A stretch of DNA of 64,000 nucleotides, from assembly GCA_043228905.1 (NCBI GenBank), contig JBHGNT010000001.1:19282001-19346000 (forward strand), read 5' to 3'. This document shows, piece by piece, positions 1,707 through 63,355 of this stretch. Position 1 is the first letter of the stretch. Each line of letters starts with the position of its first letter. The notes under the pieces were generated by a model that was not told the origin of the DNA, ran no database searches, and saw only the letters and a program-made list of their open reading frames with translations. Source of the DNA: Azolla caroliniana. Taxonomy: Eukaryota; Plantae; Polypodiophyta. The translations under genes and the position numbers were made by a program.

Positions 1707-1969
1707 TGTCAGGAATAGTACTAAAGCAGAGATGGAATTAGTACTAAGAAGAGTAGTACTATTAGTACTAAGAGGACGGGACTGCGTAAGATTCCCGAGA
1801 GAGAGGAAGTGAGAAGAGGAGAGAGAGAGAAATAGGATGATGACAGCAGCTCTTATATTATATGAAAGATAAGTACAAATCGGCTAAGAGGCTTAAGACT
1901 GGTATTGAACCAATTTGGTTCAAAACAATGCCTTGTGCCTCCTTTTATAGTGTTTTTAGGAATAATCCT

Positions 1970-2002
1970 GAAGCTTCTAGAATGTTCCAGAGAGATCTGG
2001 AA
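1970..2002. promoter_or_regulatory. Heat-shock-element array in B LTR (second copy at 12640-12672)
   Basis: GAAgcTTCtaGAAtgTTCcaGAGagATCtgGAA: alternating nGAAn units with 5-bp periodicity, about 20 bp upstream of the minus-strand TATAAAA (1943-1949). Confidence 0.7.
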
Positions 2003-2063
2003 TATACATCAATTTTCTATGATAAAGCATAAATGAAAATAATATCCTACAAAATACAATTCA

Positions 2064-2120
2064 TAGTCTAATGGTAAGAGCTCGACCCATGTAGCATAAG
2101 GTCATGGGTTCGAGTCTTGC
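2064..2120 (+). promoter_or_regulatory. tRNA-like Pol III internal promoter module in B LTR (second copy at 12734-12790)
   Basis: A box TAGTCTAATGG (2064-2074) and B box GGTTCGAGTC (2107-2116) at tRNA spacing; no intact acceptor stem. Confidence 0.7.
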
Positions 2121-2143
2121 CATATCATGACACTATCTCCCCC

Positions 2144-4408
2144 TTAAAGACGACGAGTGGAACGAGTCGGCGCTAATTGCGGACCGGGTTTGTCCGGATA
2201 CTTTCGGTGGAAATCAGCAAGAAGATCTTGTGCATTGGCAACATGCTCGACGGGTTCCGAAGTACGTTCGCTTGGACTATAACCGAGCCAATCGACCAAG
2301 TAATAAAGTTTGTTGCGAACAAGTTTGGAATCGAGGATGGCAGCAACTTCATACTCCGGGCCGGCGTCCAACTCCAGCGGGGGCGGCGGTGGTGTCACAT
2401 GATCGGGAATGGTGTTTGCTTTATAAGGCTCAAGAAGAGAACAATGGAAAACCGGATGTATCTGAAGCTGCGGAGGGAGATCAAGGCGGAAGGTGGCATC
2501 ATTAATCTTCCCCGTAATACGGAAAGGACCGAGTCGTCGATAATCCAACTTGTCGTACGGTCGAGTAGTCTTGATGTGACGACGTAAGAGCCATACTCGA
2601 TCTGCGATGGCAAAAGAGGAGGGAATCCGATGACGATCTGCATAAGTCTTCTGTATGTGTTGAGCATGACGAAGGTGAGTAGAGAGATCCATCTGGATCT
2701 TGCGTAGCCTCTCCAAATGATCCTCGGCACGAGGGTTGGTAGGTAGCTCCGGAGTGTCGATCACCGACCAGCAAGGATGGAAACCGGTATAAGCGAAAAA
2801 TGGGGAGACCCGAGTTGAGGAGTGAATAGCATTATTATACGCAAACTCCGCAAAGTGGAGAATCTCGGCCCAATCGTCCTGTTGATAACTCAGGAAACAC
2901 TGGAGATATTGCTCCAGCGTTTGGTTTGTTCGTTCCACCTGTTCGTCGGTCTAAGGATGGTAGCCGGAGGAGAGGTTGCAGGAGACCTTGAGCATCTTGA
3001 AGAGATGTTGCCAAAATTTGGAGACAAATTGCAGACCTCGGTCACTGATAATACTGTCTGGGAGGCCATGATGCCGAAATACCTCACACATAACAAGAGC
3101 GATGGTTTCCTCGCTAGTGATGGCTTTAGTACATGGCAGAAAATGTGCCATCTTCGTATATCGATCGACGACGGTTAGGATAGCATCGAACCCCTTCGAG
3201 ACCGGCAGATCTGTGATAAAATGAAGACAAATAGGCTGCCATGGCTTACTTGGAATCGGTAAAGGTTCTAACAAGCCATATGGATGGTGTCGTGGCATCT
3301 TTGCTCGACAGCAAGCATCACAGGTCCGAACGTAGTCGTCAACAAAACGGCACATGAGGGGCCACCAAAAAGATCGCTGCACTAGCTCTAACGTCTTAGT
3401 ACTACCGAAATGTCCCGCCATATGGGTGTCGTGACAATGTTGGACGATTTGAAGGTGACAGGAGCAATCAGGGACATATACGCGCTTTTTAAAGAATAAC
3501 AAACCATCATGATATTCGAATTGTCGGTAGTCAATACTTGGTTGTTGAGACTGAGAACAGGATGCCCGAGAAGTATCAATGTGCGCCAGGATGTCTTGAA
3601 CAAAACTATCCGTCTTCAAGGTTGCACGTATGTCATCAGTAATCTGTGAATCCATCAGGGTGTGAAAAATCCGCATCGTGTGCAATTGTGTTGGTCCCAA
3701 GATTACTTGCTTTTGATTATCAAATGTTGCGTCACCAGGACGAGGTGCAAGATATGAACGCCGTGATAGTGCATCTGCTTTTCCTTGCTGCTTCCCCGGT
3801 CGATATGTGATTTTGAAGTCAAAACGCGTGAGGAATTGCGCCCACCGAGCTTGTCGTCGATTTAGTACGCGAGCATTCTGAAAATAAGCAAGATTTTTAT
3901 GATCGCTAAAGACAATGACCTGATGTGGAGAGCCCTCTAAGAAATGCCACCATTGTACAAATGAATCCACGATGGCTAATAACTCCTTGTCATGTATTTC
4001 GTAGTTGATTTCTGCGACATCGAATTTGCACGAATGGAAAGCCACCGGATGCAACTCTTCTTTCTCGCCTTGTTGAGAAAGGATGCTACCAAGGGCGAAA
4101 TATGATGCGTCGGCCTCCATGATGAATGGTTTGCTTGTATCCACATGAGCTAGAATCGGTGCTGATGTAAAGGTTTTCTTAAGATGCCGAAAAGCCATAT
4201 CTGCTTCTATGGACCAAAGAAATGCTTGGCCCTTCTTCGTAAGTTGTGTGAGAGGTAAAATAATCTTCGAGTAATCCTGTATAAACTTACGGTAGAAGTT
4301 AGCAAAACCTAGAAAACATTGTACATCTCGTACCGACCGTGGAATTTGCCACTGTAGTACAGTTTGGATTTTAGCTGGATCCATGGTGATGCCCTTTGAG
4401 GAGATGAC
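2144..4408 (-). pseudogene. Element B pol 3' part: RT end, RNase H, integrase, chromodomain
   Basis: NYEIHDKELLAIV (RH), H-H-C-C zinc finger, IISDRG core, and C-terminal EYEVAAILDSK...YYLVDWLGY chromodomain. One internal stop at about 2951. Confidence 0.93.
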
Positions 4409-5079
4409 TGTTGGGATTTCGGTCCCTCCGGATGGGATGTCCGGAGATGAATGACGGCAAGCCCGGAGGCTGTTACGGAACCGGGTGATGAAGAGTACCC
4501 GGCATGAAGCCGGATGAAGAGTACCCGGCTACGGATCCGGATGATGAAGACCCCGGTTACGGAGCCGGATGCTGAAGACCCCGGTTACGGAGCCAGATGA
4601 CGTATGTACCCGGAGAGAGATCCGGATGCGGGGACATATTTGTGAATATGTTTGCCAAGGGCCCTTGAGGCTATATTTGTAAATAGCCCGAAAGTCATAT
4701 GTGTATAAATATGACTTAGGGCAAACAGTTTGTTGTTGTTGCTCATTTTCTGTTTTCACTGAGAGAGAGAGTGAAGAGAGCAGCAGAGAGGGAGAGAGAG
4801 AGAGAGAAAGACGAAGAGGTCGTTGCCTCTGTGTATTACCGCCGCCTGTGGCAAAGACAGTGAGCTCAAGGTTGTTGCCTTGTAGCTTCACCATTGTACA
4901 TCTCTGTGTATAGTGATAGTTGGAGTTTGAGGACTCCCGTGGTTTTTCCCTATTTAGGGTTTTCCACGTAAAACATCCTGTATACTCTTCTCTCTATTGT
5001 CTTCGTGCATTTCTTGTATTTCCCGTTTTCTGTGAATCGATCCTATTCCTCGGTTGTGGCCGAGCTCTGTGGTTCAACA
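4409..5079 (+). repeat. 5' LTR of element E (U3 has short CCGG-rich tandem repeats; TATA at about 4704)
   Basis: Direct repeat of 9166-9836; contains GATGAAGAGTACCCGGC x2 and TGAAGACCCCGGTTACGGAGCC x2. Confidence 0.97.
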
Positions 5080-5109
5080 AGTGGTATCAGAGCGACGGTA
5101 ACACAGAAA

Positions 5110-8100
5110 ATGGAAGGCGGCGGTAGTGGGCCTCCGGGCATGATGGTGTTGAACTCACAGAACTACGCCGACTGGAAGATAAAGATGGAAGACCTTCTCA
5201 TCGTCCGAGACCTGTATGAACCGATCGACAATGCCGAGATACCCAAGGGGGTAATAGAGTCGGAGTGGAAGCTCCTGAACCGGAAAGCCGTAGCGACGAT
5301 CCGGCAATATGTCGATGTAAGCGTCCTACAACATGTGGCGAACGACACCAACGCATATGAGATGTGGAAGAAGCTGTCGGGCCTCTACGAGAGGAAGAAT
5401 GCGTTGAACCGGACCTCCCTGATGAGGAAGATAGTGAACCTCAAGTACCGGGACGACGAGAATATGGTGGAACACGTGAGCACGTTCATGGGATTCGTGA
5501 ACCAGCTTGCGGCGATCAAGTTCCCGTTGGAGGATGCAATGCAAGCCATCATTCTGATGTGTACATTGCCGGAAAGCTGGGAGAACTTGGTGGTGACTCT
5601 CAGCACCTCCTGCACCGAAGATAACTTGTCTCTACAAACGGTAAAGACAAGCATTTTGAACGAAGAAGCGCGTCGGAGAGATAAAGAACCGGTTTCCGAT
5701 CCGAAGATGCTGCTTACCGAATCGGATCGGGGAAGACAATGGAACCGGAGTCCGCAAAGACGGGAGAAGTCGGGGACCCGGTCGCAGTCAAGAGGAAGGC
5801 CCACATGCTTCCACTGTGGGAAGCCGGGGCACTTCCGGAAGAATTGTCGGCATTACCGAAAGGACAACGGAGCCGTCGACACCGATTCGAAGAAGTCACC
5901 GGAGAGAAACGGTGCATACCGAGGAGCCACGGACCGGAGAGGTCCGGATCGGCGAGGGCAGGACCGGAAAGGAACGACGGCACTCGCGGCAAGTGAAGAA
6001 GAGATAATGCTCATTACCGAAGAAAGGGAGCTGAACCTTGCCGGTGAAGAGATGACCTGGGTGGTCGATTCCGGAGCGTCGTTCCACCTGACCCCGGAGA
6101 AGAAATACTTCTCATCCTACACAGCCGGTGAGCATGGCTATGTCCGGATGGGAAATGAAGGTACATGCCGGATTGCCGGCATAGGAGACGTGTGGCTGAT
6201 GACATCAACCGGATACAAGATGCTGCTGAAGGATGTTCGACACGTTTCGGAGGTTCGATTGAACCTGATTTCGGCCGGGAGGCTAGACGATGAAGGCTAC
6301 ACGGGTAGCATCCGCAACGGTGTCATGAAGTTCAGCAAAGGGAGCCTGATAGTGGCTCGGGCCCGGAAGGTCAACACACTGTACCTGATGAATTCCCGGC
6401 TATGTCCGGAGGAGCTGAACGTGGCAGCTGACCCTGCTGGTGAGCTATGGCACAAGAGACTGTGCCACATGAGCGAGAAGGGGATGAAGAGGCTTGCAGA
6501 AGACAACCTTATTCCAGTGAAGCATGTGCACCTGGAGAAGTGCACCGATTGCCTGGCCGGTAAGCAGAACCGAACCTCCTTCCACTCAAGGCCACCGACG
6601 AGACGTAGTGTACCATTGGAGTTGGTGCACACTGATGTGTGTCAGGTAGAAACGAAGTCACATGGCGGAGCCCAATATTTCGTAACATTCATAGATGACC
6701 ATAGCCGGAAGCTGTGGACGGCACCGTTGAAGACAAAGGACCAAGTATTGTCCGTCTTCAAAGAACTCCACGCGAGAGTGGAAAGGGAATCCGGCAAGAA
6801 GCTGAAAGCGATAAGAGCGGATAACGGAGGGGAATACCGGGGGCAGTTCGCGGAGTACTGTCGCTCGAAGGGAATCCGGCTCGAGTTTACTGTGCCGAAG
6901 ACGCCGGAACTGAACGGGCTGGCCGAGAGGATGAACCGGACCATAATGGAGAGGGTCCGGAGTATGCTGGCGCATGCGAAATTACCCAAGGGGTTTTGGG
7001 CTGAGGCAATGTCGACGGCGACATACGTGATAAACAGATCACCCTCAGCACCTTTGGACGGAGACACGCCGCAGAGAGTGTGGTCCGGTAGGGAAGTATC
7101 CTACCGGCATCTGAAGGTGTTCGGGTGTCTCGCATACGTGCATGTGGCAAAGGAACGGAGAGGAAAGCTAGATCCAAAGACCCGGCCATGCATATTCCTC
7201 GGTTACGGCGATGACGAGTTCGGCTACCGAGTATGGGACCCGGTCGACAAGAAGATATTCAGGAGTCGAGATATCATCTTCATGGAGGACAAGACACTCG
7301 CCGACTGGGAGTCGGAGAAGAAGATGAAGAGCTCCAAGTCGACCGGTGAGGATCAACTCTACGAGGAGCAGTCCCGACCGGCAAGGGACCGGTTAGCACT
7401 CGAGGATCCGGCCGAAGACGGTGAAGAAACAGAACCGGCCGAGGAAGATGAAACTGATACCGGAACCGGCCCCGATCCCGAAATGGATTCGGATGAAGAG
7501 GAAACGGAGGAGCCGGTTACCGAAGCTCCGGAACGGAGATATCCTCTAAGAGAGAGAAGGGCCCCCCGGAGATTTCCGGAACCAGAGCACGTGCTGATAA
7601 CCGACGAGGGGGAGCCGGAGAGTTTTGAAGAAGCAAAGCTTGACACCCATAGCCGCAGGTGGTTAAGTGCCATGCAGGAGGAGATGGATTCCCTGCATGA
7701 GAACCACACATATGAACTTGTGGAGTTGCCGAAAGGAAAGCGGGCACTTCGAAACAAGTGGGTGTTCAAGCTGAAACCGGGAGATGCCGGAAACTCCCCG
7801 AGATACAAAGCCAGGATCGTGGTGAAGGGGTTCCAGCAGAAGAAGGGCGTCGACTTCGACGAGATATTTGCCCCGGTAGTGAAGATGACCTCCATCCGGA
7901 CCTCGAGGTAGAACAGATGGACGTGAAGACGGCATTCCTTCACGGTGACCTCGAAGAAGAGATCTACATGCAGCAACCGGAAGGATTCGAGAAGAAAGGG
8001 AAGGAGCACCTGGTATGCCGGTTGAAGAAGAGCCTTTACGGACTGAAGCAGGCTCCCCGGCAATGGTATCAGAAGTTCGACTCCTTCATGAACGACGAAG

Positions 8101-9155
8101 GGTACCACAAAACGCAGTCCGATCATTGCGTGTTTGTGAAGAAGTTCGGAGGAGGAGACTTCCTAATACTCCTCCTGTACGTGGACGACATGTTGATCGT
8201 CAGACGGGACCAGGTCAAGATACAGATGCTGAAGAAAGCACTTCACCGAACCTTCTCAATGAAGGACCTGGGTCCGGCGAGGCAAATACTAGGGATGCAC
8301 ATCATCCGGGACCGGAAGAAGAAGCAGTTGTGGCTGTCACAGGAGAAGTACGTGACAAAGGTGCTTCAACGGTTCAACATGTCGGAAGCAAGACCGGTCG
8401 GATCGACCCTCCCGGTAAACTGCAAGTTATCCGGCAAGCAAAGTCCCAAGACAAAGGTTGAAAAGGAGGATATGATGAAGATACCATATGCCTCTGCCGT
8501 AGGAAGCTTGATGTACGCAATGGTGTGTACAAGACCAGACATAGGATATGCAGTCGGAGTGGTGAGCCGGTACATGAGCAATCCCGGCAAAGAGCACTGG
8601 AACGCGGTCAAGTGGATACTCCGATACCTGAAGGGCACGGCAAACGTGTGCCTCCGATTCGGCTCCGGTAAGCCCGAACTTGATGGATTTACCGATTCGG
8701 ACATGTCGGCTGATGTGGATACCAGCCGGTCTACATCAGGGTACGTAATGACATATGCAGGGGGAGCCGTTTCGTGGCAGTCGAGGTTGCAGAAGACGGT
8801 TGCGTTGTCAACCACGGAGGCGGAGTACATGGCGGCTGTTGAAGCCGGCAAGGAAGTAATATGGATGAAGGACTTCATTAGAGAGCTCGGTATCCGGCAG
8901 GAGGAGTACCGACTCTACTGCGATAGTCAGAGTGCCATCCACCTTGCGAAGAACGCGGCCTACCATTCCCGGACGAAACACATCCAGCGTAGATACCACT
9001 GGATCCGGGAAAGGATAGAAGACAAGGAGTTCGTGCTGACGAAGATCCACACGGACGAGAACGGGTCGGATATGCTGACCAAGGTGCTCACACCCGACAA
9101 GCTGGAAGCATGCCGGAAGAGGATCGGGTTGGAGAGACATCCCATGCCGAAGTGA
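5110..9155 (+). pseudogene. Element E gag-pol (gag, CCHC knuckle, PR, IN, RT, RNase H) with a single frameshift at about 7902
   Basis: CFHCGKPGHFRKNC, WVVDSGAS, LWHKRLCH, DNGGEY, MDVKTAFLHG, YVDDML, RTKHI. The frame switches between ORFs 5005..7911 and 7758..9155. Confidence 0.95.
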
Positions 9156-9165
9156 AGGGGGAGTT

Positions 9166-9836
9166 TGTTGGGATTTCGGTCCCTCCGGATGGGATGTCCG
9201 GAGATGAATGACGGCAAGCCCGGAGGCTGTTACGGAACCGGGTGATGAAGAGTACCCGGCATGAAGCCGGATGAAGAGTACCCGGCTACGGATCCGGATG
9301 ATGAAGACCCCGGTTACGGAGCCGGATGCTGAAGACCCCGGTTACGGAGCCAGATGACGTATGTACCCGGAGAGAGATCCGGATGCGGGGACATATTTGT
9401 GAATATGTTTGCCAAGGGCCCTTGAGGCTATATTTGTAAATAGCCCGAAAGTCATATGTGTATAAATATGACTTAGGGCAAATAGTTTGTTGTTGTTGCT
9501 CATTTTCTGTTTTCACTGAGAGAGAGAGTGAAGAGAGCAGCAGAGAGGGAGAGAGAGAGAGAGAAAGACGAAGAGGTCGTTGCCTCTGTGTATTACCGCT
9601 GCCTGTGGCGAAGACAGTGAGCTCAAGGTTGTTGCCTTGTAGCTTCACCATTGTACATCTCTGTGTATAGTGATAGTTGGAGTTTGAGGACTCCCGTGGT
9701 TTTTCCCTATTTAGGGTTTTCCACGTAAAACATCCTGTATACTCTTCTCTCTATTGTCTTCGTGCATTTCTTGTATTTCCCGTTTTCTGTGAATCGATCC
9801 TATTCCTCGGTTGTGGCCGAGCTCTGTGGTTCAACA
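9166..9836 (+). repeat. 3' LTR of element E
   Basis: Direct repeat of 4409-5079, preceded by the PPT. Confidence 0.97.
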
Positions 9837-9841
9837 ATGAC

Positions 9842-11146
9842 GTAGCCTAGAAATTCCACTTGCTTGCAGTCAAAGCTACATTTTTCTAGCTTGGCATAAA
9901 GACCATTCTCGCGGAGTCGCTTTAGTACTAATAGTACATGAGAATCGTGCTCTTCCTGGGTCTTCGAATAAATCTACAGATCATCCAGATAAATGATCAA
10001 ACAGATATCCAAGAGGTCTCTGAATATATCATTTGCCATGTGTTGGAAGACTGCGGGTGCATTGGTTAGGCCAAACGGCATAACAGTATACTCGAAATGC
10101 CCATACCGCGTGCGAAAGGCGGTCTTCCACTCATCTCCTGGTCGGATCCGCACGAGATTATACGCTCCTCGTAGGTCGATTTTAGTAAAAAACTTGGCAC
10201 CATTAACTCGCTCTAAAAGACTTGATATAAGAGGAAGTGCATACCTATTCCGGATGGTGACTTTATTCAATCCATGGTAATCAACGACAAGACGAAGTGA
10301 GCCATCTTTCTTCTTGACAAAGAAGATGGGTGCACCGGCCGGAGATTTCGAATGGCAGATGAACCTGCTTGCCAAGTTCTCCTCTATGTAGGCTCGAAGG
10401 ACTTCTAACTCGGTGGGTGACAAGTTGTAAATTGGTCCCCATGGTGGCTCGGTTCCTAGTTGTAAATTGATGGGACAGTCATAGGGACGGTGATGAGGAA
10501 GGGTACCGGCTTTTACCTTTTCAAATACATCGGCATAAGGATGATATTTTGCTGGAAGTTGTACTGAGGAGTCCTTCTTAATAGTGCTGGAAGGATGTAC
10601 TGATATTGCAAATAGGAACATTGCCTCCTTGGGTCCTTCGCGTAGTTGATGGAGTGAAATGGTCAAAACTTGGTGAGTTGATTCTTGGGGTGGTCGATAT
10701 CAGACTTCTCTTGTTCTCCAATCTATGGCTGGAATATGTAATTCAAACCAAGGTAATCCTAGGACAATGGGATGCTCTGGACTACTAATTATATTAAATG
10801 ATATTACACACACAAAACTACCTAGGACAACTTGAATGGGTTCTGATTCTTCTATAATATTCCCGGAAGCAATGGGACGACCATCAATGACAACTATAGA
10901 TGCGGGACAAGGAAGTTTTCTTAAGGATATCTGAGAAGCTTGGGCAAAATTTCGATCCATGAAACAGGAATTAGCTCCGGAATCTAAAAGTGCTAGGACG
11001 GGTATTGGGGGAGTACTTTTAGTACTAACAATGACTTGGGCTAGGAACACATTGCTAACTTGCTTGGAAGGAATGGAACCACTAATGGGCTGTACAGATC
11101 TAGGGCTGCTGTCCAACCAAACAACTCCTATTTTGGCTGGACTCAA
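9842..11146 (-). pseudogene. Element B pol 5' part: aspartic protease and reverse transcriptase
   Basis: ALLDSGANSCF (PR); [38 protein letters not shown] (RT); internal stops. Confidence 0.93.
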
Positions 11147-12300
11147 TTGGTTAACTCTTCATCTAATTGACTAAGGATTTCAAATTTATTTGAGATACTT
11201 GGGCTATTAGTACTATGAATACTATCAAACATTCTATTAGTACTATTAATACTATCAGACACTCCTAAGGGAAGAATTGACTCAGGTTTAGTACAGGCTA
11301 CAATTTGATTTACCTGTCTTCTTGGCCTATGGGGACAATTGATTGCGATATGCCCTGGTCCACCGCAATAAAGACATAATCGATTTGCACGTCGTCGTTG
11401 CTTTTCTTCTTCCGATAACGGGCCGCGTCGACGCATGGTATCGATCTCCATCGGTGTCGAAGTATTTGCTTGAGGAATGTCTCGTGCAAATGGTCTAGCC
11501 GCGACTGCGGCGTAAGTGGGCTCCGGCCTAGCACGTGGTATCTGTAATTGACGTTCCGAACGCCGTTCGAAGAGGCGGTTGTCACATCGGACCGCTCGAC
11601 TGATTGCCTCCGTAAGAGACTTTGGTTCTTCGGGGAAGGTTAGAAGTAGATCTTTGACATCATTTCGCAGGCCATAGCGAAATTGCTCCATTAGTGGTTG
11701 ATCATCCCAGGGTATGTCGGAAGCGGGTAGGCGGAAATCCGCCGCATAGGCAGAGGCTGGACGATCGCCTTGACGCAATCGCCGGATCTTGTTGATCGCC
11801 GTCCTGATGCTATCGGTGTCTCCAAATCAAGCTTTGAACTCACTAATAAAATCTTCAAAGTTATTAAGCAAGGGCAATTGTTTTTCTAGAAGCGGAGTGA
11901 ACCATGCTAAGGCTGAGCCGCTAAGCAACGTGCCTATTAAGCCGACTCGGGATGCATCAGTGGGGTATTGGGAAGGATGCATTTGGAGGACTAATCGTAC
12001 CTGATTAAGGAATCCCCTGAATTGCGATCGCGTTCCATCAAATTTCACAGGAAGTCCAATCTTCGGCTCTTTATGAAATCCTTGGGGACTTGATCCTTGT
12101 TGTTGCAATGCCGCTTCGAGTTGTTGCACCCGTAACGCTAACTCCCCATGTTGTTGCTGCGTTTGTTGTTTTTCTAGAGCGATTTGTTGCAGATCCCTTA
12201 TCAGCCGTTGGTTTTCTTGTTCGAGGGCAACAAACTTTTCTTTTAGGCACTGTAACTTGGAGAAAACGGATTGATATTCTTGGGCGCTAACAGTAGCCAT
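11143..12300 (-). pseudogene. Element B gag (PEG10/sushi-like capsid plus CCHC knuckle)
   Basis: PVKFDGTRSQFRGFLNQ, LLSGSALAWF, PMEID, CLYCGGPGHIAINC; one internal stop at about 11827. Confidence 0.9.
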
Positions 12301-12362
12301 AGTAGGGGGAAAAGGATAGGAGGATGAGGGAGAACGACAAGTAGGCTGGAGGAAAGAGGAAT

Positions 12363-12374
12363 AAATTGGTTCAA
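12363..12374 (-). promoter_or_regulatory. Non-tRNA (self-priming type) PBS of element B: TTGAACCAATTT
   Basis: 2 nt downstream of the 5' LTR, lacks TGG, and is perfectly complementary to minus-strand AAATTGGTTCAA at 12586-12575, which starts about 33 nt downstream of the TATA box. Confidence 0.8.
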
Positions 12375-12376
12375 AC

Positions 12377-12802
12377 TGTCAGGAATAGTACTAAAGCAGA
12401 GATGGAATTAGTACTAAGAAGAGTAGTACTATTAGTACTAAGAGGATGGGACTGCGTAAGATTCCCGAGAGAGAGGAAGTGAGAAGAGGAGAGAGAGAGA
12501 AATAGGATGATGACAGCAGCTCTTATATTATATGAAAGATAAGTACAAATCGGCTAAGAGGCTTAAGACTGGTGTTGAACCAATTTGGTTCAAAACAATG
12601 GCTTGTGCCTCCTTTTATAGTGTTTTTAGGAATAATCCCGAAGCTTCTAGAATGTTCCAGAGAGATCTGGAATATACATCAATTTTCTATGATAAAGCAT
12701 AAATGAAAATAATATCCTACAAAATACAATTCATAGTCTAATGGTAAGAGCTTGACCCATGTAGCATAAGGTCATGGGTTCGAGTCTTGCCATATCATGA
12801 CA
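12377..12802 (-). repeat. 5' LTR of element B
   Basis: Direct repeat of 1707-2132. Confidence 0.96.
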
Positions 12803-15963: not shown

Positions 15964-17003
15964 TGTCGTGAAGATTCGTCACTACGCGCGGATCGTGAGG
16001 CGAAACCGCCGGGGTTCTGGACCGGAAGGATTCAAAGTCAATACAAGCTTTGGCGAGAAAGTACTTAAGATAGATTGGGAAAGAGAGAAGTTGAGATTAA
16101 AAGATTGAGAAAGATTGATTGAAGTTTTATCTTTGGATTTAAGAAACAAGTTACACCATCAATTTGATAACGAATTTCTTCTTCTTAATTTCATAATAAA
16201 AAAAAACCGTGTTTTCTCTCCTCCCCCTTCCTTCTTTTATAGATGCTCTCATGCATATGATGCATGTGAGGGTACAAGACATGCATAAATTGCATGTTTG
16301 CCATTTGGCGCTTATGTATTACATGTGGTGCATGATAACCATGTCACTCATTTTAGCTCTCATGTATAAGAATTTACATGTAAAAGTACAATGATATACT
16401 TTCAACTAAATAGCATGGCTTAATGGTAAGTCAATTGATTCCTAACTTGGAGGTGCAAGGTTCGAATCCTTGCCCTCCTTGTATATGTATATATGTATAT
16501 ATATTTATTTATCTAGTTGCCGGACGCCGGTTCGTCGGATGCCGTCGCTAAATACCGATGCCGCCGTCACCGGATTGCCGTCAGATGTCGCCGATTCACC
16601 GGCTCCATTGTCGGTCCGGTTTTGGTTGGCCAAAACCCTTTACGAGTAGCTAGCCCACCTCCACTCTTAGTTCAACTTACCTTGAACTCTCTATGCTCCA
16701 CACATAGAAACAAAGATAATATCTTTTGCTCCACCTTATATATTATGAGAGCCGTATTTGTCGTGCCTATGTGGGATATCTCACAATTTTCTCTTTTCCT
16801 TTCACAAACTTTATACCCTCATATCTTGACATTTAGTTGTCCGTTTCTCGTGTAATAAAGTGCATTCGAAAACTCCATCATTTTGTACTTAGATATTAAA
16901 TTTATTTAAAATTTTATCTTCAGAATTATTGTATTATGTGATTTATACTCGACTTTGTACGTTTTATGGGATTTTCACACTATTGCCGAAAATCTTCACG
17001 ACA
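15964..17003 (-). repeat. 3' LTR of element C
   Basis: Direct repeat of 22825-23847 with substitutions and several indels. Confidence 0.95.
16416..16474 (+). promoter_or_regulatory. tRNA-like module in C LTR (second copy at 23283-23340)
   Basis: A box TGGCTTAATGG, D-arm-like hairpin, loop TTCCTAA, variable region GAGGT, and a perfect T arm GCAAGG-TTCGAAT-CCTTGC. Confidence 0.78.
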
Positions 17004-17075
17004 TCCACCCCCACCAAACCGCACGTCCTTCGGTACGTGCCAAGAAGAGAGAAAGTGAGATTTCGGCTACGATGA

Positions 17076-20000
17076 TCAATTAGATTCCTCCATGTCTTCA
17101 TTTTCATCCGCCCTGTTATGTTCATCATCGAGGTAATCGAGGTCAGGATCCTTGTCTTGTCTTTTCTTGAAAATCTTTACTCTTTTTCCCGCAATGGGTA
17201 CGGCTAACCTTGATCTGTCTAATTCCGCAAGGTGGTATGTCGCATTATCGTTGGCACTTGTCACCACATACGGCCCGAACCATCTTCTTGCAAACTTTCT
17301 TGTTGTACTGTGTTGATTGTCAAGGGTGCTGTCGTAAACCAAAACCCAATCCCCTTCTTCAATCTTCTTGGGACGAAGTCGATGCGTGTTGTCGAACCGA
17401 ACTTTGTTCTTTACTCGGGCTGCCTTCATCATCTTTCGTGCTTTTTCTAAATCTTCAGGTCTTCTTTCAAGTTGCCTTATCCGCGCCGCCAATAACTCTT
17501 CTCGGCTCATCTCGTTCTCCCACGGTATCGCTACCCATGAGGCGATCGTCCTTTCGATGGGCATAATCGGCTTTTGTCCATACATAAGCTCCGTCGGCAT
17601 ATACCCTGTCACCGGGCTATGTGTCGTTCTATCGGCCCAGAAGGCATAGGGTAATAGTCGTGGCCAATTCCCGACTCGACCGTTGCATGCCTGTACGATG
17701 GCTTTAACGATAGGTCCATGCCCTCGCTCGATCTTCCCATTTGCTTCTGGATTGTAGGCAGTCGTGAGGGAGAGCTTCACGCCTAGTCTTTCGAAGAGCT
17801 CCGTCGCTTCGTGCACGTCCAACTCCCCTCGGTCGGCCACTATCTTCCCTACACATCCATATCGGCAAACAACATCTTCAAGTAAAAATTTACAAACGGT
17901 TGAAGTCGTCTTATTTGTCAAGGCTCATCCTTCCACTTGATTTGTCAAGTCTTCCCTTGCCAGCGCTAAGTACTTCATTTGTCCCACTCCCATTGGCATC
18001 GAGACCAGATCCACCATCCATTTGAAGTAAATGGTGAGTGGGTATGTCGGCTTTAACTCATCATGATGATGTATATTTGAATATATTTGGCAAGTTTCAC
18101 ATGTGGACACGAAATGGAGTACATCTTTGTACATGCTTGGCCACCAATACTTCTCCTTCAACTTTTCGAACGTCGCCCATGTTCCTCTATGACCTGCCCA
18201 AGCACTCTCCTGGAATTCGGTCATCAGCGTCTCTTGCTCTTCTTTCTTTACCACCACTTGACGTGGTATTCCTGTCCTTCTTTTTGGATGTCGCCAAAGG
18301 AATCCTCCCTTCAAGAAGTATCGGTAAGCTTTCTTTCGGATTCGTAGGGCCTCCTCCTTTGTAAACGAAGCATCTGTCGTCAATGTTCTTAGGAATCTAC
18401 CGATGAGTAACCACTCTCCTTCGTACTCGTTCTCATTGAAGGCGTGGAGGGTTTACGTGTCCTGGTCTTCCGCCGACAATCGAGCCATCTTGAAGAAGTC
18501 GAGGGTGACATCTTCATCTTCTGAAACCATGTTACTTCCATTTGAAAATCTTGCCCTCGACAGCATGTCAGCCATGGCGTTCTTCTTCCCTGCAATGTGA
18601 CGGATCTCTAGGTTTAAAGACTTGATGTAGGCGATCCACCTTAGCATAGCAAGATCTGGGGTCGCACATCCCGAGACCATTCCGACAATTGGGAGACAAT
18701 CTATCTCTATTATCACTTCTAACCCGATCAGGTAATCTTTGTCCGTCTTCACTGCCGACACAATACCCCAAAGTTCCCGCTTGACTTGGGCATATCTTTG
18801 TTGTCGTTTGCTGAGAACCTTTGCTCCGAACCGGACGGCATATCGCGCATTATCTTGACCTTCTTGATTGATGACCCACCCGATTCCGGTTGGGCTAGTA
18901 TCTACGGTCACGTAAATTGGTTTCCCTTCGGCATAGTCGGCCTTCCTTAGTGCCGGAGCTTCAAGAAGCAGTTTCTTTAATCTTCGCATCGCCTCTGTGT
19001 GCTCGTCTCGCCATTCGAACTTTATTCTTTTCTTTAGTAGTCCATATAACGGTTCGGCGACATGAGCGTAGTGAGGAATCCATATATGATAAAACGTGCA
19101 CGCTCCAAGGAACCTTCGAACCTCCGTTTGGTTTTCGCATTCTTCTTTCATGTCTTGGATTGCGTTCACTTTGGATGGCGAGGGCTTCTGGCCGTATGCT
19201 CCACACAAGTGACCTACCACCAAGATCTCTGATTGCCCGAATGCGGATTTTTCTCCCGAAAATGTCAAATTCGCATCTTCGAGCCTTTGAAGCACCTTCT
19301 CGCAATCTTTCATATGATCCGCAACGAACTTTCTACAACCTTCCTTATCTTTCGATTCATCTTTCTCCTCATCCGAACATCCTTTTATCGGAATATCATC
19401 CAAGAATGGCATCGTGATGTCCGGAATGCAATCCTTCAAGACTTTATTCATGGCATTCACCATATGAGCCACCGAGTTCGTTGCGCCTTGGGGTAAGGTA
19501 CACATCCGCACAAGCCCGATCGGAGTCCTCATGGTTGTAATGTCCCGACTGTCGATTGCCAATTGGAATTGGTCATATCCGGAGTAGAGATTGCCAATGG
19601 AGTAGATGGACCGGCCTGCAAACGCTTCGGCAAATTCGTCCACGCTCAGACCGATTTCGGCATTTCGAATTGTCACCTTGTTGATGGGTTGAAGATCTTG
19701 GATGAATCGCAATGATCCATTCTTCTTCGGCACCGTGAACCACCTATTGGAATAAGGAGCATTCGACGGATCTAGAATTCCCATACTCACCTTCTCCTTT
19801 AAGAGCTCGATCAACTTCGGAAGGTGTGCTCTCGGAACGGGTATCGGTTTTAAATTCCAAGGCACATGAGGCACCGTGAAGATCACCATCGGCTCTATAA
19901 CCTTTGGGTCGGCGCATCCGATTTCTCGTGGGAAGCATGCGAAAGCCTTCCCATGTCTCTCAAGCATATCGCGAAACATTCGCTCCTCTTCAGGGAGAAG

Positions 20001-20560
20001 GAAATCCTCCTTTCCAACTCGTAGCTTCCCCTTCGTCTCTTTGGTAAAGACATGACCTATCTTCTTCGGATCTCTGAAGCTTGGATCGTTAGCAACTTCC
20101 TTTATCTTTTGCCAGCTATCTTCCGGTAGCGAAACCGCAACTGGCTTGATCTTCTTATCCACCGTTTTATATTTCGTGTTGATATCAGCTTCCTTCATCG
20201 AGATGCCACGACGGTATTCATCGATGATAGCGTACATGTTGACGGAGTTAACCAAAATCATGCATTGGTTGTGAAGATAGCTCAAGTCCACAACGTCCTC
20301 GATTTCGCCGATGGTGTCGTTAAATGAGGCTTCTTCCATAATATGGGTCACGAACTCTCCTTCTTCTATTATGTTCTCTTCTTTTAGCATCTTCTCGAAT
20401 TCTTGTATCTGGCGCTTGTGCTTCTTGTCGGGTAGTACTAGTTTACATGCGCCACTAGGTGTGACACATGTTGCTTCTCCTTGCTATCCACGCACTCTTC
20501 TTTCTTGTGGGGTCTTGTGATTGCTCGGACTATTTGTGCCCCATGCTTCAATAGTCCGCT
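17076..20560 (-). pseudogene. Element C pol (RT, RNase H, integrase)
   Basis: WFTVPKKNGSLRFIQDLQP, LPQGATNS, PFLDDIPIKG; VTVDTSPTGIG, RYAQVKRELWG; IVADRGE, YNPEANGKIERGH, WFGPY. Contains frameshifts and stops. Confidence 0.92.
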
Positions 20561-22757
20561 CTAAAAATCCGAGGATTCGCCTCCGAGACTATCTCGATTC
20601 CTCATGATTGGCTCGCACCGTTAGGAATTGGACCGATCTTTGGTTGTCAAGACTCTTTATTCGTGTGAAGGCTGCTCCATTATCGAATACTTTGGTCTCC
20701 ATCCGAGATGATGTGATATAAGGTTGCCCTAGGATGACAGGATGCGACGTCGATTCTTGTACGAAGAAGTGTTGATCCATCTCCACATCCCTGATCATGA
20801 CTTTGACATTGGGACAAGCTCCGTACAAATCCTCCGTAGACTTTGTTGCCGCGCGAATCTTCCATCCGTGGTTTGTATTGATTGGCCATCTTCCTTTTTT
20901 GTAGAAGTCGGTTGACATGAGGTTGATCTCCGAGCTGTGGTCGATCAAGGCTACCACGGTCTCTTTCTTCTCCCCGATCTTCACCGGCGTCTCCGTTGTC
21001 GCTCGTGCCCAATGAGGTCGAGTGTAGTGGCTGTCCACCATATCTTCATCGATTTCGTCTCTTGCCATCGTTATGGCATTCGTTTTTGCTTTTTGCGGCT
21101 TCTCTTCTTCCTCATCCGATTGTTGTCTCTTTCTCTTTACAAGGTCCACGATCATGTCATGGAACTCCTTCTTCGTAATGCCAAGCAATTCCCTCAAGGA
21201 CAAAGTTACGTGGCTATCAAGAACTCGTTCTTCGAGAATCTTCTTTAGGTCCGTCGTCTGCTCTATGTCCGACCTTAGCTTATAGGTAGGTATAGTCCTT
21301 GTCCTCCGAGCGGGGTCTTCAACACCAACCTTCACGGGCCGAACCGTTTCTTCAACTCGTATGCTCGGCTCCCCTTTCCGGCTTGATTCTCGTTCCTCCG
21401 TTTGTAAAGGTCGACTCGTCTCCGCATCGTCCTTCTTTTTCGTGTTCCTTGTTTCATGTCTTTTTGATGGCCCTTGCTCTTCTATTCTCTTTCTCTTTTC
21501 TTCGATGAACACCTCGTGGTTCTCACACATCACCTCTGCGAGTATGGTGTTGTCATCCACCGGATCTGACCACCCAGTTATGCTTTTCATGCTTCGGTCC
21601 GCAAGCTCTACCTCGTTCGACGTGACTTTTCCCTTCTTCTCATATTCGAGAACGGAAGTCCAAAACTTTGCTCCCGCTCTAGCAGCTTCAGTCTTGTCTT
21701 TTCCGACTCTTATTCCGGCCGACGCAGCATAGTGCATCGCATCCACATGAGTCGCATCGGCATCCTCCATAGATTTCTTCATTCCTCTTCTTCCGAAATT
21801 CACCCGTAGGGGTCTTCTAGTCTCGCTTGAGCAAATCATGTTGTCCTCTATGTATACGATATTTTGTTGAATCGCCTCTCGAAGGCTTGCACAATCCCTT
21901 CTCATGTGGTCCATGCTGTTGCACCACACGCATCTAAAGGGTTCTTTTCCTTTAGGGCCCCGACGATTCATGTTGGCTAGCGTGATCTTCTCGAACTTCT
22001 TCGCTAGCTCTTCAATGATGTCGTCATCAATCTTCTTTTCTTCCACGTTACTTTGTCTTGGCGGCTCAGCTACTTTCGGTGGTCTTGCTTTCTCCGTGGT
22101 AGTCGGTCCCGTCAAGTCGGTGTCATCAACCCATTGGCGACGCTTGTCGAGCCTATTGCATGCCCGCTTCACCGCTATCCAGTCCGCTACGAGCCCATTT
22201 GCTTGGGTATCATCTTCGAGAAGAGTCCCCAACTCCCGTCTATCCTTTATGTCCACGACCTTCAAGAAGTACAAAGTCTTGTCCTCTTCAAGCAACACTT
22301 GGTCCATATTGGGGAGACGACTAAACATCTGGTCGAATTCGTCGTACACCCTCGAGACGCTCATCTTCTTATTCTTCTTCTCTATCCACTTCATCAGGGC
22401 ATGTCGAGTCATCCTCGTTGAGTCTTCAGTCACGAACTCCGCTAGTATCATTTTCTCGAACTCGGACCATGTTGTCTTACCTTCTTGAAGCTCGATGACG
22501 CGTCTTTGGATGTTGTTGGTGACAACTCTCTTGAAGCTTGCGATTTGACGTGCCTCGGACAAGTCCCTCTGATTCATCTCCCTTCTATATGCATCAAGGA
22601 ACTTCGTAACGTTCCTTCCATCGAATTAGCCCTCGAGCTCTACGACATGATCGACAGCCTTCTCCACGCTCATGTCGTTGTCCCGAGATCTCATCATTTG
22701 CTCGACGATTAGCATCATCCTTTCGAGCTCTCCCGCTTGGTTGCTTGAGGACGCCAT
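20561..22757 (-). pseudogene. Element C gag-protease
   Basis: FDGRNVTKFL, CVWCNSMDHMRRDC knuckle, ALIDHSSEIN protease site, ILGQPY; one internal stop near 22628. Confidence 0.85.
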
Positions 22758-22800
22758 CTCCAAGTATTAATCTCGACTTGATCCTTCCTACCGCCTCTTT

Positions 22801-22816
22801 CACGTCGGGTTCACCA
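22801..22816 (-). promoter_or_regulatory. PBS of element C, TGGTGAACCCGACGTG (tRNA-Trp)
   Basis: Lies 8 nt inside the 5' LTR boundary and matches the recalled plant tRNA-Trp 3' end CACGTCGGGTTCA-CCA. Confidence 0.8.
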
Positions 22817-22824
22817 CTTGCTTA

Positions 22825-23847
22825 TGTCGTGAAGATCCGTCACTACGCGCGGATCGTGAGGCGGAACCGCCGGGGTTCTGGACCGGAAGGATTCAAAGTC
22901 GATACAAGCTTTGGCGAGAAAGTACTTAAGATAGATTGGGAAAGAGAGAAGTTGAGATTAAAAGATTGAGAAAGATTGATTGAAGTTTTATCTTTGGATT
23001 TAAGAAACAAGTTACACCATCAATTTGATAACGAATTTCTTCTTCTTAATTTCATAATAAAAAAAAACTGTGTTTTTTCTCCTCCCCCTTCCTTCTTTTA
23101 TAGATGCTCTCATGCATATGATGCATGTGAGGGTACAAGACATGCATAAATTGCATGTTTGCCATTTGGCGCTTATGTATTACATGTGGTGCATGATGAC
23201 CATGTCACTCATTTTAGCTCTCATGTATAAGAATTTACATGTAAAAGTACAATGATAGAAATATACTTTCAACTAAATAGCATAGCTTAATGGTAAGCTA
23301 ATTGATTCCTAACTTGGAGGTGCAAGGTTCGAATCCTTACTTGCCCTCCTTGTATATGTATATATGTATATATATTTATTTATCTAGTTGCCGGATGTCG
23401 CCGGATGCCGTCGGTTACCGGTGCCGGATTGCCGCCGGATCACCGGCTCCATCGTGGGTCTGGTTTTGGTTGGCCAAAACCCTTTACGAGTAGCTAGCCC
23501 ACCTCCACTCTTAGTTCAAGTTACCTTGAACTCTCTATGCTCCACACATATACACAAAGATAATATCTTTTGCTCCACCTTATATATGATGAGAGTCGTA
23601 TTTGTCGTGCCTATGTGGGATATCTCACAATTTTCTCTTTTCCTTTCACAAACTTTATACCCTCATATCTTGACATTTAGTTGTCCGTTTCTCGTCTAAT
23701 AAAGTGCATTCGAAACCTCCATCATTTTGTACTTAGATATTAAATTTATTTAAAATGTTATCTTCACAATTATTGTATTATGTGATTTATACTCGACTTT
23801 GTACGTTTTATGGGATTTTCACACTATTGCCAAAAATCTTCACGACA
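22825..23847 (-). repeat. 5' LTR of element C
   Basis: Direct repeat of 15964-17003. Confidence 0.95.
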
Positions 23848-47730: not shown

Positions 47731-48183
47731 GAATCAAACTGTCAGAACCAAGGATAAAAGATAGAGTGATGGAAGAAGGATATTAGAGAACACGAGAAGA
47801 AAGGAACGAAATACTAAGAGAAGAATGGATGTATAAGATAGAGAAAGAAAGAGAATGGATACAAGATATGTAATGAGAGCTAAAGACTGGTGTTGATTCG
47901 AATTGATTTGAGAATACATGTATGCCCTTATTTATAGGCTCCTATAGAATAGCTTAGAGATTTCTAGAATGTTCTAGAATGTTCTAGACCTAGAATGCTC
48001 TAGGACATTCTAGAACATTTTAGAATAATCTAGAGGTTTTACAATAATCAATGTAATACAAGAAGTAGCTTTTATTGTTTCATATAACAATAAGCTATCT
48101 TAATGGTTGAGGTTTTCAAGTATGGATTACAAGGTTCGAGGTTCAAGTCCGGGTGACGCCATAATGGTCATGTGTTCATGACA
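47011..48183 (-). mobile_element. Element B' (B-related chromovirus) 5' remnant: LTR 47740-48183, self-priming PBS 47726-47737, gag
   Basis: Gag EPKISLPTKFDGSR...YPTDASRVGLVGTLL closely resembles B gag; TGTCA...TGACA LTR ends; HSE array at 47962-48030; tRNA-like module at 48096-48161. Confidence 0.88.
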
Positions 48184-62084: not shown

Positions 62085-63355
62085 ATATATGTATTGGGGT
62101 GCAAAGAACAAGTCGATAGTACGCAAACACAAAACAAGAAACGAAAACAGAGGCAGAAGATATTTAACGTGGAAACCCCAAACGGGAAAAACCACTTGTG
62201 TCAGGCCTTTCGCTCCGGATCATTGCATGAGTCGGGTGGGAACCGTTGAGGTTTTGGACTAGGAGAAAGAAGAATATGAGATAAGGTTTGTTACGAATAG
62301 ATTGCAAGATGAAGATATGAAACTCGTGAATCTCACGAGTATAGTGTATTAATTGATATTTAGATTGTAAGAGAGAAATAGATGGCAAAATCATGAATCC
62401 CACGAATATTTTTTATTAATCAACCCTTATAAAAAATCAACAACCATATACATCTTTCTCTCTTCCTTATATAATGATGGAAGAGGCTAATTATAGCATC
62501 ATGCTTTTTCCTGAAGTGTTCGTGCACATTAAATGTGCACGAGTTGCCTTTTTCAACCATGATTTTTTATTTCCTAAATATAGTGCTCATGCACGCTAGA
62601 TGTGCATGAGTAATTGCCTTGTGTTTTTCTTCCAAATAAAGTTTTCACGTATTCTAAAAGTGCATGATTTACTTTTTTTGTAAAAATAGGCATAAATATA
62701 AGTCTTATATTTATTAAATCTATATTTAGATCACTTATGATAAGTTAGTACAATGGTAAAGTTTGGGTTTGTTTATATGGAGGTATACGGTTTGAATCTT
62801 GCCCTGTGCATGTAACAATGTTTTTAATCTTTTCTTTTATTTATTTATGCGTACTTAAATCGGATATATTTTTTACATATGTCACGTAGTGTGTGAATAC
62901 ACTACGACAACGTGGAGTTCACAAACTCTAAAATAGAATCACAATTTTGGGAGAAGTACAATGAGAAGCTAAAAGGCAACAACCTTCTGCTCTCCTTTGT
63001 TAGACGGACGGCTATAGAGTTACTCACATGCTAACTCTCATTCTCTCTCTTATTCTCAATTACTAAGGCAACAACTCACTGTAACTTGTTATAACTATAT
63101 ATCATCATTAAACTACTTACCCTAAGTATATTTATATTGATATACGATATGGGCTATTTACAGATATAGCCCACATGGGGCACATTTAGACTATTTACAA
63201 ATATAGTCTCTCAAATCGGTTATATAACCGATTTTTAGTTTTTGGACTCGGCTGAATTACCCGCATACTCCACCCGATTCGGTTTCTCCTCTTTTTCCCA
63301 TTCGGAGGGACCTGTTTTCCCTACACTTTCATTTATGCTTCATGGTTCCTTGGGA
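62085..63355 (-). repeat. Copia-type LTR (E-like U5 motif) interrupted by a solo LTR
   Basis: ACGTGGAAACCCC-AAACGGGAAAAACCAC|GTGGAGTTCACAAACTC parallels the reverse complement of E LTR 4920-4970; boundaries are approximate. Confidence 0.55.
62199..62909 (-). repeat. Solo LTR of the D family
   Basis: Colinear with 37167-37763 (TGTC...CACTACGACA); flanks ACTTG/ACGTG; tRNA-like module at 62746-62800. Confidence 0.8.

What the first reader, a model, noticed from the sequence alone, without database searches (positions are those of the whole stretch)
16416..16474. tRNA-like Pol III modules built into the LTRs of the C/D Gypsy lineage, always antisense and upstream of the TATA box
Seen: four LTR copies carry an A box and B box at tRNA spacing (44 nt from T8 to G53): 16416/16459 (TGGCTTAATGG..GGTTCGAATCC), 23283/23326, 37601/37644 (TAGTACAATGG..GGTTCAAATCC) and 62746/62789. 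The C copies keep a D-arm hairpin, an anticodon-loop-like TTCCTAA, a GAGGT variable region and, at 16455-16473, a perfect 6-bp T stem, but no acceptor stem. C and D LTRs are otherwise poorly alignable, so the module is preferentially conserved. It lies in U3, about 175-280 bp upstream of the Pol II TATA, on the opposite strand. Established: Cassandra TRIMs carry a 5S rRNA Pol III promoter in their LTRs, and tRNA genes/TFIIIC sites act as heterochromatin barriers in yeasts. Inference: autonomous Gypsy elements here may carry a domesticated tDNA mimic as a portable insulator, nucleosome-free region or antisense Pol III promoter. I know of no description of this arrangement.
Basis: partly seen in the sequence, partly recalled or inferred. 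Interest (0 to 1): 0.85.

Follow-up and report, generated by a model that had tools for sequence, protein, structure and literature searches.

The report
tRNA-gene promoters inside moss retrotransposon LTRs
Two distantly related families of protein-coding jumping genes, likely from a moss, carry in their end repeats a tRNA-gene-style promoter that has lost the tRNA shape but kept the letters predicted to bind the RNA polymerase III factor TFIIIC, and it likely helps keep the element's own promoter open in silenced chromatin.

Summary
Observation confirmed and larger than reported. The four A/B-box pairs are at the stated places; three more lie in LTRs of two Tcn1-type chromoviruses (2064, 12734, 48096). 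All 7 are antisense in U3; shuffles give about 0.01. C/D fit Phygy. Of 32 related elements with U3 held, 13 carry the module, 2 a decayed one, 17 none. Across 10 homologous pairs, promoter-invariant letters differ at 4 of 100 sites, against 62 of 200 in the spacer (detection bias alone predicts 17). tRNA stems pair at chance level and spacing stays 43-44 nt. So selection acts on DNA promoter letters, not on a tRNA fold, and no free SINE copy was seen. 'Always antisense' fails: 6 of 30 modules are sense. C's nearest pol relatives lack it. Best reading: a TFIIIC/TFIIIB site that opens or shields the LTR's Pol II promoter; binding and function are untested. Closest known: Helenus/Cassandra TRIMs (non-autonomous, sense). 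My searches found no description in autonomous elements; this scan noted similar LTR modules in fungal-like genomes.

The parts
16416..16469 (+). Module in the 3' LTR of element C: A box 16416-16426, AGGT (tRNA 44-47) 16451-16454, B box 16459-16469
   Evidence: 35.1 bits
23283..23336 (+). Module in the 5' LTR of element C
   Evidence: 36.9 bits
37601..37654 (+). Module in LTR D1
   Evidence: 32.8 bits
62746..62799 (+). Module in LTR D2, B box decayed (C56>T)
   Evidence: 19.9 bits
2064..2117 (+).
   Evidence: 40.1 bits
12734..12787 (+).
   Evidence: 40.1 bits
48096..48150 (+).
   Evidence: 35.9 bits
15964..23847 (-). Element C, Phygy-type Gypsy, 7884 bp; LTRs 15964-17003 and 22825-23847; TSD CCGG; gag (DUF4100) and pol with stops; no chromodomain found
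16235..16241 (-). TATA-like box of the C 3' LTR downstream of CATGCA repeats (a second TATA-like box lies near 16742); which one is used is inferred, not shown
22800..22817 (-). Primer-binding site of C (tRNA-Trp type; the tRNA label is recalled and agrees with the Phygy row of PMC6317226)
37167..37763 (-). LTR D1 (5' LTR; PBS-like sequence and gag start follow at lower coordinates); TATA-like box near 37393-37400
62199..62909 (-). LTR D2, outer flank ACGT; TATA-like box near 62466-62473
1707..12802 (-). Chromovirus A (Tcn1 type, self-primed, chromodomain), LTRs 1707-2132 and 12377-12802 (98.8% identical), TSD GGAAC, interrupted by a copia element; TATA-like box 114 nt from the A box
47740..48183 (-). 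5' LTR of chromovirus fragment B (self-priming leader; gag 71% identical to A over 95 aa); TATA-like box 159 nt from the A box

Best explanation
The module is a tRNA-derived A/B-box promoter kept in the LTR DNA of protein-coding Gypsy elements, where it likely binds TFIIIC and loads TFIIIB about one nucleosome length from the LTR's own TATA box and so would keep that Pol II promoter open or shielded in TE-dense heterochromatin. Shown here: the sequence, position and orientation; conservation of the promoter letters and of 43-44 nt spacing; loss of tRNA pairing; presence in two Gypsy lineages whose RTs are 27% identical; patchy presence, duplication, and a mosaic C LTR. Inferred from yeast work: TFIIIC binding (B box plus positions 44-47) and TFIIIB loading (needs the A box). 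Inferred only: that the benefit is a nucleosome-free or barrier patch. Short antisense Pol III RNA would be a by-product. The cassette is optional: many relatives have lost it or swapped U3.
For: 10 disjoint homologous pairs: invariant promoter positions differ at 4 of 100 sites, degenerate box positions at 34 of 100, spacer at 62 of 200, positions 44-47 at 1 of 40. Neutral decay with the same detection cut-off predicts 17.1 differences; 1 of 100,000 simulated sets reached 4 or fewer. G19, G46, G53, T55, A58, C61 are 30 of 30. Stems are at chance: T-stem outer pairs 45 of 90 against 41 shuffled (335 of 2000 shuffles reach it), acceptor 2.7 of 7 against 6.85 in 53 real tRNAs, anticodon 2.13 against 2.14 shuffled. 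With spacing free from 25 to 95 nt, 29 of 37 box pairs fall at 43 or 44. PMC11724288 (passages): yeast TFIIIC contacts a base at +47 upstream of the B box, changes at +44 to +47 alter transcription, a 32-bp A/B gap (the modules' gap) is the commonest in yeast tRNA genes, and the A box is needed for TFIIIB binding, not for TFIIIC binding. PMC12409998 (passages): tRNA genes and ETC sites act as TFIIIC-dependent heterochromatin barriers. Both orientations, tandem copies (L045, L046, L086) and modules on both sides of the TATA fit a DNA element; 26 of 30 point away from the TATA. No enrichment of T4 terminators (16 of 30, shuffled 16.8). The window is a nest of retrotransposons.
Against: No binding, chromatin, methylation or transcription data were seen. 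17 of 32 relatives with U3 held have no module, among them C's six nearest pol relatives (84-91% identical), so it is not needed to transpose. Chromovirus F in this window (identical LTRs, intact 1420-aa ORF) lacks it (best 0.9 bits). TFIIIC tolerates 31-93 bp gaps (PMC11724288), so the fixed spacing is tighter than binding alone requires; L044 keeps both boxes with an 11-nt shorter spacer. A kept A box and a 4:1 antisense bias fit real Pol III transcription equally well. An A-box G10>A variant has 2-20% of contig depth in the A family. Modules were found by their boxes, pairs were chosen by eye, and the invariant set follows the recalled consensus but was fixed after I had seen. The loci are collapsed metagenome contigs, most from few assemblies, and may be chimeric. 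Barrier precedents are from yeast and mammals, not plants.
Confidence: 0.5

Rival explanations
1. The module is a working Pol III promoter whose short antisense RNA is the selected product. It would damp or tune the element by pairing with U3/PPT of the genomic RNA or by feeding small-RNA silencing.
For: The A box, needed for TFIIIB loading (PMC11724288), is conserved; 24 of 30 modules are antisense; the A copy folds into a long hairpin (z -6.4). A tRNA-like A/B unit is transcribed in Leishmania (PMC4950102, abstract).
Against: No RNA sequence or fold is conserved between the boxes; T4 runs are not enriched (16 of 30 against 16.8); 6 sense copies exist; hairpin strength varies from z -6.4 to +1.3 among the 7 window copies.
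Confidence: 0.22
2. The modules are relics of tRNA genes or tRNA-SINE heads that landed in LTRs and hitch-hike with U3 without function.
For: Patchy presence (13 of 32); decayed copies (D2, L020, L030); the same 43-nt, AGGT-bearing layout is in Helenus-1_SMo (supplement, by eye), so the spacing could be inherited; the mosaic C LTR shows U3 blocks move as a whole.
Against: Same-age letters decay at different rates: 4% at promoter positions against 31% in the spacer; stems have fallen to chance while boxes stay; no free copy with tail and TSD among 30 modules (one, L085 at 1428, has an uncertain context).
Confidence: 0.1
3. The element acts as RNA: the reverse complement of the module in the 3' U3 of the genomic RNA pairs with a tRNA to help priming or strand transfer, as recalled for the Ty3 bipartite PBS and the tRNA-like tract in HIV-1 U3/R (recalled, not read).
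For: Antisense bias in U3 and exact tRNA spacing; C/D use a tRNA primer.
Against: A and B are self-primed (leader complementary to the LTR's own start) yet carry the strongest modules; 6 sense copies; G>A changes that G-U pairing would allow are nearly absent at G18, G19, G46, G53 (1 of 120); positions 59-65 do not match the primer end read from the PBS; the spacer is unconstrained.
Confidence: 0.07
4. The module is a landing pad or decoy for retrotransposons that integrate upstream of Pol III genes.
For: Lead from an earlier scan note in a fungus-like genome (e1-10420520, unchecked).
Against: No insertion sits just upstream of any of the 7 window modules; the one junction near a module in the loci (L046, about 510) has no LTR end at the junction and looks like recombination or misassembly.
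Confidence: 0.04

Closest known systems
Helenus TRIMs / TRIMp3 (Kojima 2024, PMC10886601; main text parts 1-5 of 6 and supplement passages read)
   Same: tRNA-like sequence in LTRs, conserved around boxes A and B, not a functional tRNA; the Selaginella family has the same 43-nt layout with AGGT before the B box (by eye).
   Different: Helenus is non-coding, 311-1263 bp, the module is on the sense strand in the consensus I saw and is proposed to make the genomic RNA. Here the elements encode gag-pol (6-8 kb), keep a TATA box, and the module is mostly antisense. The paper notes that 'not a few' Repbase LTRs hold tRNA-like sequence but analysed only TRIMs, lists no moss family, and argues autonomous elements must use Pol II.
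Cassandra and Ajax TRIMs (as described in PMC10886601)
   Same: [quoted passage not shown]
   Different: 5S rRNA type 1 promoter, non-autonomous; Cassandra's drives its own sense transcript.
tDNA and ETC chromatin barriers (review PMC12409998, passages read)
   Same: TFIIIC-type B box beside a Pol II promoter or heterochromatin edge.
   Different: Host loci of yeast and mammals, not carried by a mobile LTR; ETC sites lack TFIIIB, whereas these modules keep the A box. Barrier activity is untested here.
tRNA-like A/B boxes upstream of the Leishmania U2 snRNA gene (PMC4950102, abstract read)
   Same: Non-decoding tRNA-like sequence whose boxes A and B serve a neighbouring promoter.
   Different: The neighbour is a Pol III gene, not a Pol II LTR promoter.
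Phygy and Tcn1 Gypsy clades (Neumann 2019, PMC6317226; Novikova 2010, PMC2864245; passages and one supplement each)
   Same: C/D: 4-bp NCGN TSD, tRNA-Trp-type PBS, size, no chromodomain. A/B: chromodomain, self-priming leader, RT close to SM-Tcn1 by eye.
   Different: The passages read report no tRNA-like LTR module; by eye the SM-Tcn1 LTR and the first 400 nt of the P. patens RLG1 transcript, which include U3 and a TATA box, show none.

Membership tests
Phygy (REXdb non-chromovirus), elements C/D | 4-bp TSD with NCGN preference | tested here: met
   C is flanked by CCGG on both sides; 14 of 16 outer LTR flanks checked are NCGN (definition)
Phygy (REXdb non-chromovirus), elements C/D | tRNA-Trp PBS | tested here: inconclusive
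   One PBS is shared by C, D1 and the loci; its Trp label is recalled, no eukaryotic tRNA set was at hand
Phygy (REXdb non-chromovirus), elements C/D | Size 7656-9968 bp, no chromodomain | tested here: met
   C is 7884 bp; no Chromo hit in its four ORFs
Phygy (REXdb non-chromovirus), elements C/D | RT/RH/INT tree placement with REXdb Phygy | not testable with these tools
   No REXdb sequences; named relatives are Riccia proteins at 62-66%
Tcn1 chromovirus, elements A/B | Chromodomain on integrase | tested here: met
   PF00385 at E 1.7e-10 in A; B's pol is not in the window
Tcn1 chromovirus, elements A/B | No tRNA PBS; self-priming complementarity | tested here: met
   Leaders of A and B are complementary to LTR sequence about 30 nt downstream of the TATA
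Helenus / TRIMp3 | tRNA-like A/B boxes inside LTRs | tested here: met
Helenus / TRIMp3 | Non-autonomous TRIM, about 1 kb or less, no coding region | tested here: not met
   gag-pol domains in A and C; pol in all 80 loci
Helenus / TRIMp3 | Pol III promoter oriented to make the genomic RNA | tested here: not met
   24 of 30 modules antisense
tRNA gene | Cloverleaf with acceptor, D, anticodon and T stems | tested here: not met
   ARAGORN 0; Rfam 12.7 of 29 bits; stems at chance
tRNA-derived SINE | Free-standing copies with body, tail and TSD | tested here: not met
   29 of 30 modules in LTRs or LTR fragments, 1 uncertain; only 64 kb plus 449 kb of element-centred loci were seen, no whole genome
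TFIIIC-dependent barrier / type 2 Pol III promoter | A box, B box and spacing within the known range | tested here: met
   range from PMC11724288
TFIIIC-dependent barrier / type 2 Pol III promoter | TFIIIC/TFIIIB occupancy and barrier or promoter activity | not testable with these tools
   needs ChIP, accessibility and reporter data

The most novel reading that the evidence does not exclude
Autonomous moss Gypsy elements of two distant lineages have domesticated a tRNA-gene promoter as a portable TFIIIC/TFIIIB boundary, trade it between families as a U3 cassette, and in some LTRs bracket their Pol II TATA box with outward-facing copies, so that each insertion brings its own anti-silencing barrier and scatters many TFIIIC sites through heterochromatin.
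Probability: 0.4. Interest if true: 0.82.

Novelty: new variant of a known kind. Interest (0 to 1): 0.63.

Why it matters
Pol III promoters in LTRs were described for tiny non-autonomous elements, where they make the genomic RNA. Here they are under purifying selection in full-size elements, mostly pointing away from the element's own promoter, so they likely do something else. If they recruit TFIIIC, retrotransposons that pile into heterochromatin carry their own chromatin barrier, and high-copy families would reshape the genome-wide map of TFIIIC sites. Near-identical families with and without the module give a ready natural comparison, and mosses allow targeted reporter tests. It would also give a direct test of tDNA barrier activity in plants.

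Tried and rejected
No whole genome is held, so there are no genome-wide copy counts and no genome-wide SINE search. No RNA holder listed for element C; run X20 is flagged as probably DNA; neither bears on expression. Laid contigs list only 40 of 86 and 40 of 88 variable places, so the lack of listed changes at 16416-16426, 16451-16469 and 2095-2123 is weak support only. Rfam found no tRNA in the window or in 8 module-bearing loci. A DNA pattern in viral contigs gave 6 loci, at least 5 of them on ARAGORN-called phage tRNA genes; these loci served as an independent training and control set. Protein scans of viral contigs for A and for the C lineage found no relative. 53 distant chromovirus loci (31-59% identity, 308 kb; LTR completeness not checked) hold no 43-44 nt module and one 49-nt hit at 21.8 bits. 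My index-based control for anticodon and D stems in real tRNAs scored low (3.15 of 5, 2.64 of 4) because of loop-length variation, so I rely on acceptor, T stem and shuffles. Global alignment identities between unrelated LTRs were inflated by gaps and are not used. The tree is the quick search only, one distant chromovirus as outgroup, 42 rows (38 loci with scored LTRs or close duplicates replaced by state labels, C, 4 Riccia proteins, F); it was used for a qualitative picture, no ancestral-state test. Derivation from the primer tRNA's 3' end was rejected by sequence. bioRxiv 10.1101/827881 (passages) held nothing relevant. Three look-ups of earlier findings by sequence or place gave nothing on this module in this genome.

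Full report
Setting. The window is a nest of LTR retrotransposons with one host gene near 54980-58340. No whole genome is held. The host is likely a bryophyte, most likely a moss: this is inferred from the element clades and from Riccia being the only named organism among the 120 listed relatives of C's pol. Element C (15964-23847, minus strand, 7884 bp) has a CCGG target duplication, a tRNA-type PBS and no chromodomain. This matches the Phygy row of Neumann 2019 (4-bp NCGN TSD, tRNA-Trp PBS, 7656-9968 bp; PMC6317226 supplement). D1 and D2 are LTRs of the same lineage.

The observation. A scan for an A box and a B box 38-60 nt apart with at most one mismatch gives 7 hits, all on the + strand; 200 shuffles give mean 0.01. 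A matrix trained only on phage tRNA genes returns the same 7 at 19.9-40.1 bits. The three extra hits are in the two LTRs of chromovirus A (2064, 12734) and the LTR of fragment B (48096). A has a chromodomain; A and B have self-priming leaders, as described for Tcn1 (PMC6317226). The RTs of A and C are 27% identical over 161 aa. All 7 modules are antisense to their element, in U3, with the A box 114-273 nt from a TATA-like box. Chromovirus F, element E and the copia LTR tested have none (best 0.9 bits). The modules are not tRNA genes.

Relatives. An alignment of 27 C-like pol proteins fetched the best 80 of 256 metagenome loci (449,484 bp). I judged by eye that 32 of the 80 hold U3 up to or near the TATA. 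Of these, 13 carry a module of 19 bits or more, 2 a decayed one (L020, L030) and 17 none. On a quick tree carriers lie on most deep branches, and non-carriers form several groups, including C's six nearest relatives (84-91% identical). The C LTR is a mosaic: its first part matches module-less L007/L009/L011, its module-to-TATA part matches L017, L044, L046 and L048. So U3 blocks are lost or swapped, and the module is optional. Caveat: these are collapsed contigs, mostly from few assemblies, and can be chimeric. A-family LTR pieces are abundant in four runs with four organism labels (2618-4460 contigs laid per run); loose ends there show diverged flanks that still read as A boxes. 53 distant chromovirus loci have no 43-44 nt module, and by eye neither do SM-Tcn1 nor the first 400 nt of P. 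patens RLG1 (the cell is cut there).

Orientation. Of 30 modules compiled with duplicates removed, 23 are antisense in U3 (four of these, L015, L073, L026 at 12069 and L085 at 1428, are in LTRs or LTR-like pieces whose pol I did not see), 3 are sense in U3 (L019, L021, L028), 3 are sense downstream of the TATA (L045, L046, L086) and 1 weak one is antisense downstream (L049). So 'always antisense' is wrong, but 26 of 30 point away from the TATA. L045 and L086 have two antisense modules upstream and one sense module downstream.

What is conserved. In 14 pairwise alignments of homologous LTR parts, identity is 0.74 upstream, 0.80 in the A box, 0.69 in the spacer, 0.98 at positions 44-47, 0.85 in the B box and 0.71 downstream. 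In 10 disjoint pairs, the ten canonical invariant promoter positions differ at 4 of 100 sites, the ten degenerate box positions at 34 of 100, the spacer at 62 of 200 and positions 44-47 at 1 of 40. Because modules were found by their boxes, I simulated neutral decay with the same cut-off: 17.1 differences expected, 4 or fewer in 1 of 100,000 sets. The invariant set is the recalled consensus but was fixed; pairs were picked by eye. With spacing free, 29 of 37 box pairs are 43 or 44 nt apart; L044 keeps both boxes at 32. RNA structure is not kept: T-stem outer pairs, anticodon stem and acceptor stem are at chance. T4 terminators are not enriched (16 of 30 against 16.8).

Mechanism. The conserved letters are those that TFIIIC reads on DNA. 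In yeast the B box is bound with base contacts that reach +47, changes at +44 to +47 alter transcription, and the A box is needed to position the complex for TFIIIB (PMC11724288, passages). I therefore infer TFIIIC binding (about 0.8) and TFIIIB loading on the TATA-facing side. What the element gains is inferred. A barrier or nucleosome-free patch (0.5) fits both orientations, tandem copies, bracketing of the TATA, lack of any conserved RNA product, and known TFIIIC barriers (PMC12409998, passages); moss chromoviruses are thought to target heterochromatic TE islands (PMC7466625, passages). A functional antisense RNA (0.22) fits the kept A box and the strand bias. A passenger relic (0.1) is hard to square with the rate contrast. 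Pairing with a primer tRNA (0.07; precedents recalled) fails for the self-primed A and B. A landing pad (0.04) has no support here. Against the best reading: no functional data, many active-looking relatives without the module, and spacing tighter than TFIIIC needs.

Novelty. Helenus (PMC10886601, parts 1-5 of 6 and supplement passages) is the closest described case: tRNA-like LTR sequence conserved at the boxes. It is non-autonomous and sense-oriented in the consensus seen. That paper also says many Repbase LTRs hold tRNA-like pieces, so such sequence has been seen but was not analysed in autonomous elements. Ten library searches (listings only unless cited above) showed no description of this arrangement in Phygy, Tcn1 or other autonomous plant elements. 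Repbase entries, subscription journals and five .doc supplements of PMC2864245 could not be seen. Earlier notes of this scan report LTR-borne tRNA-like boxes in fungus-like genomes, one judged a passenger and two landing pads; they are unchecked. Verdict: real, under selection, a new variant of a known kind; function likely chromatin-related but untested. Interest 0.63.

Noticed in passing
window 16250-16380; 37440-37570; 62520-62670; L017, L044, L046, L048: Clusters of CATGCA/TGCATG (recalled as the RY motif of B3/ABI3-type factors) lie between module and TATA in Phygy LTRs: 4-5 per LTR in C/D against 0.5 per kb in C's internal region. P. patens RLG2 is ABA-induced (PMC7466625), but its clade was not checked.
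   Followed up: partly
window 16742 and 16241; L007, L009, L011, L013, L024: C and its module-less relatives have two TATA-like boxes per LTR; the C LTR is a mosaic of two LTR types.
   Followed up: partly
window 2071-2123 and 12741-12793: The A module forms a long inverted repeat (z -6.4 and -5.1) right next to the PPT in the 3' LTR.
   Followed up: no
L015 3850-4116; L073 1672-1856: An LTR family starting TGTCATAACC, with non-NCGN flanks, has the module about 25 nt from its end like Tcn1 A/B but the CATGCA cassette of Phygy LTRs: possible U3 exchange between lineages.
   Followed up: no
L044 about 1068-1110: Both boxes intact (36 bits) with the spacer shortened by 11 nt, about one helical turn.
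   Followed up: no
window 26624-33737: Chromovirus F: identical LTRs, intact 1420-aa gag-pol, Met-type PBS (label recalled), TSD TTTCC, no module; likely very recent.
   Followed up: partly
window about 925-36645: Gypsy element E (plus strand; PBS near 950, 3' LTR about 36229-36645, extra coiled-coil-like region 33740-36170) hosts A, C and F and is itself inserted in D1's gag; no clear purine tract is evident before its 3' LTR, which may relate to the PPT-less families noted elsewhere in this genome.
   Followed up: no
window 54980-58340: Four-exon host gene that resembles a DUF212 acid phosphatase/haloperoxidase-related protein (label recalled, not searched).
   Followed up: no
L087-L122: 36 contigs in prokaryote genome records encode eukaryotic chromovirus pol, likely binning contamination.
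   Followed up: no
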